A stretch of DNA of 11,478 nucleotides. It comes from an uncultured Thermoplasmata archaeon. Lineage in GTDB: Archaea; Thermoplasmatota; Thermoplasmata; Halarchaeoplasmatales; Halarchaeoplasmataceae. Of this stretch, positions 1 through 9,080 are shown one piece after another. The first letter of the stretch is position 1; every line of letters starts with the position of its first letter. The stretch is from NCBI GenBank assembly GCA_964399335.1, contig CAYNQI010000001.1, positions 1 through 11,478 of the forward strand, given 5' to 3'. Below the pieces are notes generated by a model. It saw only the letters and a list, made by a program, of their open reading frames with translations, did not search any database and was not told the DNA's origin. The position numbers were made by a program, and so were the translations under genes.

Positions 1-23
1 TATCCAGACTAGGCCACACGCCC
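1..23 (-). tRNA. 5' end (nt 1-23) of a tRNA gene truncated by the window edge, probably tRNA-Arg
   Basis: The minus strand from 23 to 1 reads GGGCGTG TG GCCT AGTCTGGATA: a 7-nt acceptor strand, T8-G9, D-stem GCCT and a D-loop with G18-G19-A20. This matches the archaeal tRNA-Arg pattern, and A20 is an Arg identity element. The anticodon lies outside the window, so the isotype is inferred. Confidence 0.75.
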
Positions 24-50
24 TGGTTGTTTTGTTGTGGACTGGTGTGG

Positions 51-58
51 ATATAAAA
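51..58 (-). promoter_or_regulatory. Putative TATA box of the edge tRNA
   Basis: The minus strand reads TTTTATAT, ending 28 nt upstream of tRNA position 1 (base 23), which is typical archaeal spacing. There is no convincing BRE. Confidence 0.55.
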
Positions 59-79
59 GGAATCTTTGATTCCTAGGCA

Positions 80-90
80 TATCCAGACTA
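80..90 (-). repeat. Exact copy of tRNA nt 13-23 (D-loop)
   Basis: Plus strand 80..90 TATCCAGACTA is identical to 1..11. Confidence 0.9.
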
Positions 91-91
91 T

Positions 92-119
92 ATTCAAGGG
101 CATCATGATGGCCTTGAAT
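92..119. repeat. 28-bp near-perfect palindrome
   Basis: ATTCAAGG-G-CATCATGATG-G-CCTTGAAT is self-complementary except for the 100/111 pair. Confidence 0.9.
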
Positions 120-124
120 GTTCG

Positions 125-145
125 GGGAAAATTTTTAATTTTCCC
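125..145. repeat. 9-bp stem hairpin
   Basis: GGGAAAATT (125-133), TTT loop, AATTTTCCC (137-145). Confidence 0.9.
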
Positions 146-149
146 AGTA

Positions 150-162
150 AGGCCACACGCTC
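150..162 (-). repeat. Copy of tRNA nt 1-13 (12/13 identical)
   Basis: Minus strand 162..150 GAGCGTGTGGCCT versus tRNA GGGCGTGTGGCCT. Plus strand 150..160 AGGCCACACGC is identical to 11..21. Confidence 0.9.
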
Positions 163-220
163 TTGATTTTGGGATTCTAGCAATAACAAGTGTTTTAGAT
201 AAGTCTTACGCCCTGCTATT

Positions 221-3200
221 TCACCTATACCGCTTATATTTGAATGAGTCATATCCATATATTTGATTATACTCGTCGAGTGACACCTTCAAATTTTTAA
301 TATCTGATTTAGGCGTTTTAAAAACATTCCAGACCCCATAAGAGAGTAAAACAGATGTCATAATCAATAATGTTAAAAAGAGATAGGGATTGTAATAAAA
401 AACATAAAATGTTACCTCTTCAACTGCTATGTTCCCAGCTATATCAACAGCCCTAACCTCGACGACGTGTCTACCATTTTTAAGACCTTCAAAATCATAT
501 TCAGATTCATGACCTAATCTAATCCATTCCCCTCCATTTATCCGTATCTCATAATAATCGATAGATGATATCTGATTCTTACCATCCCATCTCACAACGA
601 CTTCGTCTGTATTGATCACGGAGTTAATCCTAGGCTCATTTATCTCTATCAGTGGTTTGATATTATCAACTGTAAAAAACACGGTATCATTCTGTTTTTG
701 ACCGGCATTATCAAAAACTTCTACATAGATTAAGTTCCTTCCATTACTTAAGCCAGTCAACTCATACTTGGTCAGATTCCCTACATCTACCCACTCAGCC
801 CCTTCTACACGAATTCGATGTTCTCGTTTCCCGATGCCCCCTTCGGAGTTCCAGCGAACTATTTGAGAATGACTATTAAGATAAGTATCATTTTCAGGAT
901 ATTTTATATTGATTTCCATGTGAGTGTACGGTTCAATGAGAGGATACTGATCGATAAAACCGTTTCCTTCATAAGGATCATCTGCTATACCGTCACTACC
1001 CGATTTATTCTGACCCGGACCTGAATATAGATCTTTACTTTCATGTTCTGTCCAATAATTCCCACCTTCGGGATAACCTTTATACCACCTATTTTCATGC
1101 CCTGTATCTCTACCCGGACCAAACTCACTCTCAAAGAAGTTATTATGGTAAATTGTATTTTTTCGTGAATTGAATAGTAAGCTCACACCTCTATTACAAC
1201 CAATAAACTCGTTAATAAAAATCACATTACTCTTAGATTCCACAAGGATTAAGCCGTAACTATCATTCAAAAAGGTGCTGTATGAGATATGATTTTTATT
1301 CGAATAAAATAATGTTATACTTTGAGTATTATCAACAGAATTAATGTTTTTTAATAAGTTATGATTAGAGTCCCGTAAGTAAATACCCCATGAGTTGTTG
1401 TAAAGTGATACATTATCTAAGGTATTGTTATTAGAAAATCCCATAGTAATAGCGTCCCCTATCTTTGAGAAGTTCTGATCTTTTATTGTAACTCCGGTAC
1501 AATTTGCAAGTATGATCTGACCAGCATCAAAAGGTACTGTCCCCTCTGTCTTATTACTCCAATAATAAACCGGGGCACCATTCACTAAATTATCTGCATC
1601 GATAAGATGGGTGTTCCAATACTCCAATTCTATACCATCCAACATTATACCGGCATTTACCATATTATTAAATTTAAGTGTGTTTCTCCTAGAGTTCAGT
1701 ATCGCTATAGCATAACTACTATCGGATATATAATTCCCAAGTAATAATGTATGGTTAGAGCCATATACTCTAATTCCATTAATTTCGTTACGTAGAGCAA
1801 TGTTAGATAATATCTCATTATTGTCTGATAAAAATGAATATATCCCGATTAGATTATTAGAAACGGTGTTGTTAGAAAGTGTGTTATAATCGGAAAAAGC
1901 TAAGGTTATTCCAATAGAAGCATTATGTATTGTTTGGCCCTTAACAGATATTTCAGTACAATTTACCAGTATGATCTGACCAGCACCTGACGGTACAGTT
2001 CCACCTTTTCGGTCCGCCCAGTAATATATCGGATCGCTTTTAACCGTATTTGTAGTATCTATAGAATGCGAGTTCCAGTATTTCAATTCGTTCCCCGAAA
2101 TCATAACTCCTGAATTATCCAAATTATTTTGTTTAAGACCTGAATTTAAAGAATTAATAAGAGATATCCCGATATCATTCTTAGTACCTATATTGTTTTT
2201 TAAAATATTGTCCTGAGAACTCCAAATACTCAAAAAGATTGTGTTGTTAAATCCTTTATTTTCAATAATGGTACAATTATGGGAGAAAAATAAATCTATA
2301 CCATATACATTTTCTGATAGATTGTTTTCCTCAAGATAGATATTATTTGAGGCAGATACTAGTAATCCTACATAATTATCGATAAATCTATTCGATTTAA
2401 ATGTATGATTTCTACCCCCATAAGCAAAAGTACCATAGATATTTTTTGAAAACTCATTAGAACTAACGAAACTATGATGCGATTGTATAAGTAGAAGACC
2501 GTCAAAAACATCCTCTATTTTGTTTTGAATCAATTCAGTATAGTTAGACCTTTCAATTAACAACCCATATCGATTACCAAATATGTGGTTTCCTTTGAGA
2601 GTGTTTCTGTTAGATGAATATAATCTCATACCATAAGGATTGTCAGTAAGATTATTTTCAGCAATATTATTATGGTGGGAATCTCTTAAAGATAGACCCG
2701 CTTCTTTACCAATGGTGACATTTACAGTTTTTTCCTTTTCCCAATCTTCAACTCTAGCTATAAAGGTCAATTCTACGTCACCATGTACTTCAGGATACCA
2801 CTTCCCAGAATAATATCCATCATCTTCGACCTGGTCACATCCGATTCCATCATCTTCTAAATATATCGGATCTTCACCAGTACTAAATTTCACACTTATG
2901 TTAGCTCCTAAAATCGGATAAATACCGTCATTTAGAGAGACCATCACATTAGACTCTCTGAATACATCTCTTTGAGATCGATTACCCGGGGCATGGATCC
3001 ATAAATTTATTTCGTCATCTGGGGTCCTTGTTAAGGTTTTCGAGGCATTTATCCTCCCTGATGTCAAAGTCTTGTCTTCTAAGCTGTCCAGCCTGTCGAC
3101 TGAGGATATGATCATGTTTTTAATATGATTATAATCGTAGGCCCCATCTTTTGCTGATATCAGTGCAGCTAATCCAGAGACGTGTGGAGCCGCCATGGAG

Positions 3201-8805: not shown

Positions 8806-8830
8806 TATTATGCATGAACCAATAGATGAG

Positions 8831-8904
8831 TGGGCCCGGCCGGATTTGAACCGACGACCATCTGGTTATGAGCCAGACGCTCCGCCAAACTAAGCTACGG
8901 GCCC
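8831..8904 (-). tRNA. tRNA with CAT anticodon, most likely tRNA-Ile2 (agmatidine type)
   Basis: It forms a full cloverleaf: acceptor GGGCCCG/CGGGCCC, anticodon arm TCTGG-CTCATAA-CCAGA, T-loop TTCAAAT, discriminator A, no encoded CCA. G1:C72 excludes the archaeal initiator (A1:U72). The GGGCCC acceptor resembles Ile rather than elongator Met; this isotype call is inference. Confidence 0.9.
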
Positions 8905-8938: not shown

Positions 8939-8953
8939 GATTGATGTATGGTA

Positions 8954-9045
8954 TGGGCCGAGGCGGAATTGAACCGCCGATCTTCGCCTATCCTACCGTT
9001 TTAGCGGTTGTAAGGGCGACGTCATGACCCCTAGACCACCGGCCC
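8954..9045 (-). tRNA. tRNA-Val(TAC) with a 19-nt canonical 37/38 intron
   Basis: Acceptor GGGCCGG/TCGGCCC, D-arm GTC/GAC, anticodon stem TCGCC/GGCGA, loop CT-TAC-A|A, T-arm GGCGG-TTCAATT-CCGCC. The mature length is 73 nt, without encoded CCA. Confidence 0.93.
8990..9008 (-). other. tRNA intron with a complete bulge-helix-bulge motif
   Basis: The intron is ACCGCTAAAACGGTAGGAT. Exon C32-T33-T34-A35 pairs with intron TAGG as the 4-bp central helix. The 3-nt bulges are C36-A37|A and A-T|A38, and the inner helix is CCG/CGG. Confidence 0.92.
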
Positions 9046-9080
9046 ATTTGGTTTACTATTCAAGATGAATCAGATTAGTC

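What the first reader, a model, noticed from the sequence alone, without database searches (positions are those of the whole stretch)
80..162. Split copy of the neighbouring tRNA 5' end, bridged by two hairpins (possible split-guide or decoy RNA)
Seen in sequence: on the minus strand, 162..150 reproduces tRNA nt 1-13 (one mismatch) and 89..80 reproduces tRNA nt 14-23 exactly, in the correct order. They are separated by a 60-nt insert (149..90) that is almost entirely two hairpins (92-119 and 125-145) with short linkers of about 3-5 nt. Folding both hairpins would bring the two segments together, so a plus-strand transcript could pair contiguously with tRNA nt 1-23 (or with that DNA) in a multi-way junction. 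The AT box at 52..59 reads TATAAAAG on the plus strand, which would place a start site near base 80, where the first complementary arm begins, and a short T-tract (167..170) follows the second arm. Inference: this could be a ~85-90-nt antisense or guide RNA acting on the tRNA or its locus, a same-sense tRNA decoy, or an att-like scar (a duplicated tRNA 5' end interrupted by a small palindromic element). I know no named element with this layout, and no protein partner is visible in the window.
Basis: partly seen in the sequence, partly recalled or inferred. Interest (0 to 1): 0.72.

Follow-up and report, generated by a model that had tools for sequence, protein, structure and literature searches.

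The report
Hairpin-split tRNA start copy upstream
Just upstream of a tRNA-Arg gene, an uncultured sediment archaeon carries a truncated copy of that tRNA's first 25 bases, split by a conserved two-hairpin insert; the same modular element sits upstream of four tRNA species across one Thermoplasmata family, fits no described class, and has no known function.

Summary
On the minus strand, 162..151 copies tRNA nt 1-12 (one mismatch) and 90..78 copies nt 13-25. A 59-60-nt two-hairpin module (M) lies between them. By synteny the neighbouring gene is tRNA-Arg(CCU), cut by the contig start.

A covariance model finds M in 23 of 43 genomes of one uncultured Thermoplasmata family. It finds none in 134 genomes of 28 sister families. 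Every one of about 50 copies lies between nt 12 and 13 of a truncated, same-strand copy of the tRNA immediately downstream: Arg-CCU, Arg-UCU, Ser-GCU or Met-CAU. The arms match each resident tRNA. Hairpin B covaries strongly. Copy number varies from 1 to 4 or more, and arrays are gained or lost within a genus.

The element sits between the tRNA's ancestral promoter and the tRNA, so it is most likely transcribed as a long 5' leader.

It is not a BHB intron, a dispersed MITE/REP, an integrase att scar or a known guide RNA family. My best reading is a tandem duplication of leader plus tRNA 5' part, colonised by a site-specific structured module, with arms kept uniform by short-tract recombination.

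Wobble pairs favour the plus strand, but base composition explains most of that. Function is unresolved. The scan had not noted this element before.

The parts
1..23 (-). First 23 nt of the downstream tRNA gene, cut by the contig start; tRNA-Arg(CCU) by synteny
   Evidence: the window begins at contig base 1; the same-genus genome G002 has the identical layout, continuing into a complete tRNA-Arg(CCT). An uninterrupted partial copy, as seen in G003, cannot be fully excluded.
24..57 (-). Spacer, or duplicated leader, between the pseudo-copy and the tRNA; holds a TATA-like box (52-59) 28-35 nt upstream of tRNA +1
   Evidence: One search gives the sequence. family D1: 11-31 and 150-170 are 81% identical, so the duplication includes leader bases. 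Relatives carry T-rich boxes at the same distance.
58..74 (-). H3 inner hairpin: a 5-6-bp stem with a 5-7-nt loop, anticodon-arm-sized
   Evidence: folds. The same AGGAA..TTCCT hairpin follows arm 2 in G002, G001, L030, L038 and L041.
45..88 (-). Outer hairpin in which the D-loop copy (79-88) pairs with an anti-D-loop segment (45-54)
   Evidence: pair I2 (10 nt, 90% complementary). G002, G003, G004 and L012 have CCAGACTA opposite TAGTCTGG.
78..90 (-). Arm 2: copy of tRNA nt 13-25
   Evidence: exact and unique match; sequential gene positions 14-17 and 19-21 match the resident tRNA in 27-31 of 31 units.
91..149 (.). Module M: hairpin B (92-119, with one conserved C.C/G.G mismatch), linker (120-124), hairpin A (125-145) and a 4-nt tail
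   Evidence: covariance-model hit at 90-149, 82 bits, E 2.6e-16; covariation in hairpin B; both hairpins are predicted in all 50 distinct copies.
151..162 (-). Arm 1: copy of tRNA nt 1-12, with G2>A
   Evidence: arm 1 is identical to the resident tRNA in nearly all intact units.
163..203 (-). Leader upstream of arm 1, with the conserved box CTTATCTAAAAC (192-203) that is a candidate for the ancestral tRNA promoter
   Evidence: the box and its flank are conserved in G002, G003 and G004 upstream of the first copy. A similar box lies upstream of the array-less tRNA-Arg(TCT) on G000:C30. That it acts as a promoter is inferred.

Best explanation
Window 45-162 is one unit of a lineage-restricted, modular 'pseudo-5'-half' array in the leader of a tRNA gene.

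Origin:
1. A tandem duplication of the leader plus the first ~25-38 nt of the tRNA put a truncated same-strand copy between the ancestral promoter and the intact gene. This is shown by layout and by an empty-site/filled-site comparison.
2. That copy is interrupted exactly between tRNA nt 12 and 13 by a conserved ~60-nt two-hairpin module (M). M has spread to equivalent copies of four tRNA species (shown).
3. Arrays expand, contract and are lost by unequal or short-tract recombination between the copy and the gene. This also keeps the arms identical to the resident tRNA (inferred).

Expression: the unit is transcribed with the tRNA as a long, structured 5' leader and removed by RNase P. This is inferred from promoter position.

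My reading: M, and the companion modules H3 and N, are site-specific, probably self-propagating structured insertions that persist only in the dispensable upstream copy. An insertion in the real gene would destroy it. They are not a trans-acting guide. Whether the host gains anything, for example control of pre-tRNA folding or processing, is not shown.
For: - **Conservation.** The same layout is present at 74-91% identity in same-genus genomes and in other genera, and the full locus in G002 shows the element upstream of tRNA-Arg(CCT).
- **Distribution.** Model R1 finds M in 23 of 43 family genomes and in 0 of 134 genomes of 28 other families of the class. A pattern scan of one genome for each of 185,579 species gave only these Thermoplasmata MAGs plus bacterial hits in the number expected by chance.
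- **Position.** Every hit examined lies in an array directly upstream of, and co-oriented with, tRNA-Arg(CCT), Arg(TCT), Ser(GCT) or Met(CAT). The arms are specific to that tRNA and M lies at nt 12/13.
- **Arms.** Arm 1 is identical to the resident tRNA in nearly all intact units. Sequential gene positions 14-17 and 19-21 match in 27-31 of 31. Matches fall to about 30% beyond nt 25.
- **Empty versus filled site.** G000:C30 tRNA-Arg(TCT) has no array. The orthologous locus in G001 has one behind the same upstream flank, with TCT-type arms and an M 91% identical to the CCT-linked M in the window.
- **Promoter position.** The GGTGAA..ATTTATATC box lies 35-40 nt upstream of the tRNA in an array-less genome and the same distance upstream of arm 1 in array-bearing relatives. 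Spacers of 27-39 nt between M and the tRNA hold no TATA box.
- **Dynamics.** Arrays hold 1 to 4 or more M copies. G003 has two perfect 88-nt M-free units. L031 and L096 have near-identical duplicated units. L012 has a 6-nt footprint. Contigs break at these loci in at least 7 MAGs.
- **Structural constraint.** Hairpin B is 93.5% paired, and 10 of 11 pairs show changes on both sides. The covariation score is 0.516 against 0.212 for shuffles (0 of 500 reach it) and at most 0.15 for slid controls.
Against: - No mechanism is known that would place a 60-nt module at the same tRNA coordinate in genes sharing only 5-7 nt of flanking identity. No transposase or integrase is linked: Y1 transposase presence does not track M.
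- Conservation of M over family-level divergence, with invariant bases, and of perfect 12-nt arms could equally reflect a host function.
- Short-tract conversion should erase the recurrent T>C change in arm 2, but that change persists in about a third of units.
- Stem mismatches are mostly C.A on the tRNA-sense strand, which are wobble pairs on the plus strand: 52 against 4. This is unexpected if the sense RNA fold is what selection maintains.
- No expression data exist.
Confidence: 0.42

Rival explanations
1. Plus-strand bipartite antisense or guide RNA. A transcript of the window's plus strand carries anti-arm 2 (78-90) and anti-arm 1 (151-162), held together by hairpins B' and A'. It pairs contiguously with nt 1-25 of the nascent or unfolded tRNA, leaving a junction at nt 12/13. 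There it would direct or block an event such as cleavage, modification, or folding and turnover.
For: - Arms are conserved exactly over the stretch that would pair and follow each of four tRNA species.
- All 50 distinct M copies fold more stably on the plus strand, by a mean of 5.2 kcal/mol.
- Internal wobble pairs flanked by Watson-Crick pairs number 52 on the plus strand against 4 on the minus strand. They include an invariant U.G at the base of hairpin B and a conserved one in H3.
- Of 19 transitions between arm 2 and the tRNA, 18 are T>C or G>A, which would leave G.U pairs with the tRNA.
- In this window an AT box lies about 24 nt upstream of anti-arm 2 and a T4 tract follows anti-arm 1.
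Against: - Composition alone predicts 3.8 of the 5.2 kcal/mol, and z-scores are equal on the two strands, -5.6 and -5.8.
- tRNA leaders in this genome are G-poor on the sense strand anyway, 10% G at -20..-1. That bias also produces C.A mismatches and T>C or G>A changes.
- There is no conserved plus-strand promoter. In many arrays only 16-28 nt separate arm 2 from the tRNA, and a plus-strand T5 tract often lies there.
- All arrays are in cis and co-oriented with their target, which a trans-acting RNA does not need.
- Hairpin loops are A-rich on the minus strand.
- The target region is buried in the folded tRNA.
- No C/D or H/ACA boxes are present and Rfam gives no hit.
Confidence: 0.2
2. Functional cis-acting sense leader. 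The upstream copy of the acceptor 5' strand and D-arm, together with anti-D-loop segments (the 3' strand of hairpin A and the outer H3 stem), competes with or chaperones folding of the real 5' half. This would tune how much precursor becomes mature tRNA, or when RNase P can cut.
For: - The element lies between promoter and tRNA.
- Arm 1 stays fully complementary to the tRNA's 3' acceptor strand in all four tRNA species.
- D-loop copies are paired with anti-D-loop segments in H3 and in hairpin A.
- In secondary-structure models the arm 1: 3'-strand conformer is as stable as or more stable than the native one in 9 of 10 arrays.
Against: - Shuffling the interior of the leader gives the same preference for the alternative conformer, so the energy result is generic and not evidence of design.
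- About half the family genomes, including close relatives and this genome's own tRNA-Arg(TCT), do without the array.
- C.A mismatches weaken the sense-strand hairpins.
Confidence: 0.2
3. DNA-level scar or miniature mobile DNA. Either an att-type partial tRNA duplication left by integrative elements that target the tRNA 5' part, or a single-strand hairpin element (IS200/IS605-derived PATE or REP-like) inserted in the D-arm DNA.
For: - The pseudo-copy keeps the original upstream flank while the intact gene abuts 'new' sequence, as at attL/attR.
- A mirror-image 17-19-nt copy of the tRNA 3' end lies downstream of tRNA-Arg in some relatives.
- M inserts without a target-site duplication and shows strand-asymmetric hairpins, as IS200/IS605 ends do.
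- Y1 transposases occur in the family.
Against: - All uninterrupted 5' 21-mers in 43 genomes lie at the tRNA or within 90 nt upstream, so there are no distant att partners.
- No integrase is adjacent, and there are no matches on viral contigs.
- M is never found outside tRNA 5' copies, so a 4-5-nt target cannot explain it.
- Y1 transposase presence does not track M: counts are 15, 8, 9 and 11.
- The ends of the genome's IS200/IS605 copy do not resemble M.
- Scars would not keep covarying hairpins.
Confidence: 0.12
4. Intron-bearing or split tRNA. M is a non-canonical intron, or the unit is a 5'-half gene that is spliced to a 3' half.
For: - This lineage has canonical tRNA introns.
- M sits at one fixed tRNA coordinate in different tRNAs, as transposed introns do.
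- Some copies end in the anticodon loop near 37/38.
Against: - No bulge-helix-bulge can be drawn at either M boundary or at the nt 25 junction. The 4-nt strands that would have to pair are not complementary (by inspection).
- No M-bearing copy continues into a T arm and 3' acceptor strand.
- An intact intron-less gene always follows, so any spliced product would be redundant.
Confidence: 0.04

Closest known systems
Partial tRNA duplications at att sites of integrative elements (SSV/pNOB8-type archaeal integrases; tandem accretion of ICE/CIME elements)
   Same: There is a direct repeat of part of a tRNA gene next to the intact gene. The displaced copy keeps the original flank. Repeats can stack in arrays.
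   Different: Here the 5' part is duplicated, not the 3' part. The 'element' between repeats is only about 55-250 nt. There is no integrase and no distant partner copy. The copy is itself split by a conserved covarying module.
Non-canonical archaeal tRNA introns, intron transposition, and split or tri-split tRNA genes (Thermoproteales, Nanoarchaeum, Caldivirga; from general knowledge)
   Same: A similar insert sits at the same tRNA coordinate in different tRNAs, and there are fragments equivalent to 5' halves.
   Different: There is no BHB motif and no 3' half. An intact gene always follows. The lineage is Thermoplasmata.
REP/BIME, MITE and IS200/IS605-derived PATE palindromic elements
   Same: A short (~60-nt) unit of two imperfect hairpins, with no coding capacity, tandem copies and strand-asymmetric mismatches.
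   Different: It is not dispersed: one copy in this genome and 1-9 per genome in the family. It occurs only at nt 12/13 of tRNA 5' copies. There are no terminal inverted repeats or target duplication, and no link to Y1 transposases.
Bipartite guide RNAs: the H/ACA pseudouridylation pocket, snR4/snR45-type C/D guides, and IS110 bridge RNA loops
   Same: On the plus strand, two antisense segments flank a structured scaffold and would pair on either side of one target position.
   Different: There are no ACA, C/D or K-turn signatures, no lower stem and no unpaired target nucleotides. There are no Rfam hits, no partner protein, and the element is always in cis to its 'target'.

Membership tests
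Archaeal BHB tRNA intron | Bulge-helix-bulge at the exon-intron junctions: two 3-nt bulges separated by a 4-bp helix | tested here: not met
   By inspection, the 4 nt upstream of the 5' junction (GTGG or TGGC) have no complement 2 nt before the 3' junction (TGAA or GAAT). The other geometry gives at most 3 bp. No dedicated BHB-finding program was run.
Archaeal BHB tRNA intron | Lies in a complete tRNA gene whose exons make a cloverleaf | tested here: not met
   ARAGORN and the Rfam tRNA model find nothing in the unit. Copies end at nt 25-38.
Split tRNA 5'-half gene | A separate 3'-half gene and complementary leader/trailer sequences that form a BHB | tested here: not met
   An intact full-length tRNA always follows within 27-260 nt. 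No complementary flank or BHB was found.
MITE / REP / PATE | Many dispersed copies in the genome | tested here: not met
   There is one M in G000. All family hits lie in tRNA-upstream arrays.
MITE / REP / PATE | Terminal inverted repeats or target duplication, or ends like a resident IS200/IS605 element | tested here: not met
   Empty and filled copies differ by the module alone. The ends of the IS on G000:C101 are unrelated to M.
Integrative-element att scar | Direct repeat of a tRNA segment bounding an element with (or once with) an integrase | tested here: not met
   The repeat is present, but all copies lie within 90 nt of the gene when uninterrupted. No integrase is adjacent, and there are no viral-contig matches.
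H/ACA guide RNA | Pocket flanked by lower and upper stems, a K-turn, and an ACA box 14-16 nt from the target | tested here: not met
   No ACA box lies at that distance on the plus strand (163-166 reads CTTG). There is no lower stem and no Rfam hit even at E up to 5.
C/D box sRNA | Conserved C (RUGAUGA) and D (CUGA) boxes with 10-12-nt guides | tested here: not met
   The window has an AUGAUG in the loop of hairpin B, but it is absent in G002 and G004 and there is no CUGA. No Rfam hit.
Structured RNA or single-strand element under selection | Compensatory base changes that keep the helices | tested here: met
   Hairpin B: 10 of 11 pairs show double changes and 0 of 500 shuffles reach the score. 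Hairpin A is present with many different stem sequences in all 50 copies.
Independent plus-strand RNA gene | Its own promoter and terminator, conserved across relatives | tested here: inconclusive
   The window has an AT box and a T4 tract. Relatives lack a conserved box and often lack room for one. No expression data are available.

The most novel reading that the evidence does not exclude
The plus strand encodes a new class of archaeal bipartite guide RNA. In this reading, each guide gene arises by tandem duplication of its own target's 5' end plus insertion of a portable two-hairpin scaffold (M). The RNA then pairs with nt 1-12 and 13-25 of nascent tRNA-Arg(CCU/UCU), Ser(GCU) or Met(CAU). 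A still unknown protein would act at the nt 12/13 junction.
Probability: 0.18. Interest if true: 0.9.

Novelty: new variant of a known kind. Interest (0 to 1): 0.6.

Why it matters
If the best reading holds, this is a previously undescribed family of small structured insertions with an unusually long and specific target: nt 12/13 of tRNA 5' copies. It lives inside pre-tRNA leaders.

It shows that tRNA genes in an uncultured Thermoplasmata family carry dynamic 5' pseudo-half arrays, and that these arrays break metagenome assemblies and can mislead tRNA annotation.

It bears on how fragmented, split and intron-bearing tRNA genes arise, because it provides natural intermediates: 5' halves duplicated in tandem and interrupted at fixed positions.

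If instead either functional reading is right, it would be a new mode of tRNA-specific regulation in archaea. That would be either a leader that mimics the tRNA's own 5' half or a bipartite antisense guide.

Tried and rejected
- **Assembly artefact.** Rejected. The layout is conserved in MAGs from independent studies.
- **Hidden tRNA with introns.** ARAGORN with intron search and the Rfam tRNA model find nothing in the unit.
- **Rfam at E up to 5 on six loci.** Only the true tRNAs and noise.
- **Strand by folding energy.** The plus strand is more stable in 50 of 50 copies. Composition predicts most of this and z-scores are equal, so it is not decisive.
- **Precursor competition model.** Pairing of arm 1 with the 3' acceptor strand beats the native fold in 9 of 10 arrays. 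Shuffled leaders behave the same, so it is not evidence.
- **Transposase link.** Y1_Tnp presence against M presence gives 15, 8, 9 and 11, so there is no association. The IS200/IS605 ends on C101 are unlike M.
- **Distant att partners.** None found.
- **Viral contigs.** The tRNA 5' 23-mer gave 0 hits and the M pattern gave 2 chance hits without M structure.
- **Type-N insert.** Seen at nt 7/8 in G016 and inside an M in L029. It is absent from this genome.
- **Leader peptide or small ORF across the unit.** The start codon is not conserved (by inspection).
- **Literature.** A second returned nothing relevant.
- **Earlier scan notes.** Nothing on this element.

Full report
**Observation**

The window is the first 11,478 bases of an 88-kb contig of a 1.57-Mb, 80%-complete MAG. 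The contig starts inside a tRNA gene on the minus strand, so only its first 23 nt (23..1) are present.

- The 13-mer of tRNA nt 1-13 recurs at 162..150 with one mismatch. Nothing comparable occurs in 200 shuffles.
- The 12-mer of nt 14-25 recurs exactly at 89..78.
- Between them lie 60 nt made of two inverted repeats, 92-119 and 125-145.

One correction comes from relatives whose tRNA has A or C at position 13: the break is between nt 12 and 13.

**What the neighbour is**

A same-genus genome (G002) has the same layout at 79% identity, and there it continues into a complete tRNA-Arg(CCT). The body of that tRNA is absent from this assembly. Record titles identify the family as uncultured sediment Thermoplasmata.

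**The element is a family, not a one-off**

Upstream regions of tRNA-Arg(CCT) and tRNA-Arg(TCT) from 43 family genomes show the same grammar in about half of them. The order, in tRNA sense, is:

1. Arm 1 (nt 1-12).
2. One to four or more copies of a module M: hairpin A, a conserved linker, and hairpin B with one conserved mismatch.
3. Arm 2 (nt 13 to about 25, sometimes reaching the anticodon loop).
4. Often a third hairpin (H3), whose outer stem pairs the D-loop copy with an anti-D-loop segment.
5. A spacer resembling the leader found before arm 1.
6. The intact tRNA.

A covariance model of M gave these results:

- It hits 23 of 43 family genomes.
- It hits none of 134 genomes from 28 other families of the class.
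- A pattern scan of one genome for each of 185,579 species returned only these MAGs, plus about as many bacterial hits as chance predicts.

The additional model hits revealed arrays upstream of tRNA-Ser(GCT) and of an intron-bearing tRNA-Met(CAT). In each, the arms are copies of that tRNA's own nt 1-12 and 13-22 or 13-28, and M sits at the same coordinate. In this genome M is single-copy and no other tRNA has an M. However, tRNA-Thr(TGT) on contig C6 has an M-free unit of the H3 type.

**Constraint**

- Arm 1 equals the resident tRNA in nearly all intact units.
- At sequential gene positions 14-17 and 19-21, arm 2 matches in 27-31 of 31 units.
- Identity collapses beyond nt 25. M itself has only 63% mean column identity.
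- In G001 the array sits at tRNA-Arg(TCT). Its arms carry the TCT-specific bases, while its M is 91% identical to the CCT-linked M of the window.
- Hairpin B is 93.5% paired, and 10 of 11 pairs change on both sides. The covariation score is 0.516 against 0.212 for shuffles and at most 0.15 for slid partners.
- Hairpin A is predicted in all 50 distinct copies, with many different stem sequences.

**Dynamics**

- This genome's own tRNA-Arg(TCT) on C30 has no array. Its ortholog in G001 has one behind the same flank, giving an empty site and a filled site within one genus.
- G003 has two perfect 88-nt M-free units. L031 and L096 have duplicated units. L012 keeps only a 6-nt footprint. L094 has at least three tandem M copies running off its contig.
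- Contigs end inside these loci in at least seven MAGs, including here.

**Which strand matters**

Sense transcription is close to certain.

- A promoter-like box lies at the same distance upstream of the tRNA in an array-less genome as upstream of arm 1 in array-bearing relatives.
- Many arrays leave only 27-39 nt between M and the tRNA, with no TATA-like box in that space.

The stems nevertheless look better on the plus strand.

- All 50 modules are more stable there.
- Internal wobble pairs number 52 on the plus strand against 4 on the minus strand.
- Arm 2 differs from the tRNA mostly by changes that would leave G.U pairs in an antisense duplex.

Three results weaken this.

- Composition alone predicts 3.8 of the 5.2 kcal/mol, and z-scores are equal on the two strands.
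- tRNA leaders in this genome are G-poor on the sense strand, a bias that produces the same mismatch types.
- Hairpin loops are A-rich on the sense strand.

I therefore treat the strand of the selected fold as unresolved.

**What it is not**

- No BHB can be drawn at the module boundaries, and no copy has a 3' half. It is therefore not an intron or a split tRNA.
- It is not dispersed, has no terminal repeats and shows no link to Y1 transposases. It is therefore not a MITE, REP or PATE in the usual sense.
- There are no distant partner copies, no integrase and no viral matches. It is therefore not an ordinary att scar.
- It has no C/D or H/ACA signatures and no Rfam match.
- A model in which arm 1 competes with the true 5' strand for the acceptor stem looked attractive. 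It proved generic on shuffled controls.

**Verdict**

I commit to the following reading, with modest confidence of about 0.4.

- A tandem duplication of leader plus tRNA 5' part is carried in the pre-tRNA leader.
- It is colonised at nt 12/13 by a site-specific structured module that moves among such copies.
- Its arms are kept uniform by short-tract recombination with the gene.

The rivals are a cis-regulatory leader and a plus-strand bipartite antisense RNA, each at about 0.2. A DNA-level scar or mobile element stands at about 0.12. An intron or split tRNA stands at about 0.04. Expression data would settle the main question.

Noticed in passing
G000 contig C6, about 14,900-14,969 (outside the window): tRNA-Thr(TGT) in the same genome is preceded by an M-free unit: a copy of its nt 7-23, a GTCAG..CTAAC hairpin homologous to the H3 hairpin of the tRNA-Arg arrays in G003 and G004, and an anti-D-loop segment specific to tRNA-Thr. 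This makes a fifth tRNA species with this kind of leader unit.
   Followed up: partly
L051 (G021 CCT locus) and L081 (G021 TCT locus), downstream of the tRNA: A 17-19-nt copy of the tRNA 3' end (T loop to discriminator) lies 90-245 nt downstream of tRNA-Arg. The stretch between them holds a conserved GGGATGAGAACC..GGTTC element that is also seen after tRNA-Arg in G001, G003 and G008. It could be an sRNA gene or a 3'-side counterpart of the 5' arrays.
   Followed up: no
L022/L023 (G016), L029 (G055), L095 (G017): A second insert type (N, about 55 nt, starting CACGTTGGAAC) sits at tRNA nt 7/8 of distal arm 1 copies, inside an M, or after arm 2. It is absent from this genome.
   Followed up: partly
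window 8953-9046 (-) and 8830-8904 (-): ARAGORN's default call of a 4-base anticodon is a tRNA-Val(UAC) with a canonical intron of about 19 nt, followed by tRNA-Met(CAU). In several relatives this Val-Met pair lies directly upstream of the tRNA-Arg(CCU) array, but here it is about 8.7 kb away.
   Followed up: partly
window 1 (contig start); also contig ends in G001:C38, G004:C91, G017:C7, G021:C17/C119, G045:C28 and G049:C15: Assemblies repeatedly break inside these tRNA-leader arrays. Copy numbers are therefore lower bounds, and tRNA-Arg is often missing from these MAGs.
   Followed up: partly
window 201-221: A weak third match to arm 1 and its leader (67% over 21 nt) overlaps the stop codon of the 1557-aa S8/NosD protein gene. 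The flank GCGTAAGACTTATCTAA is conserved in the genus. It may be an older degenerate unit or the promoter region.
   Followed up: no
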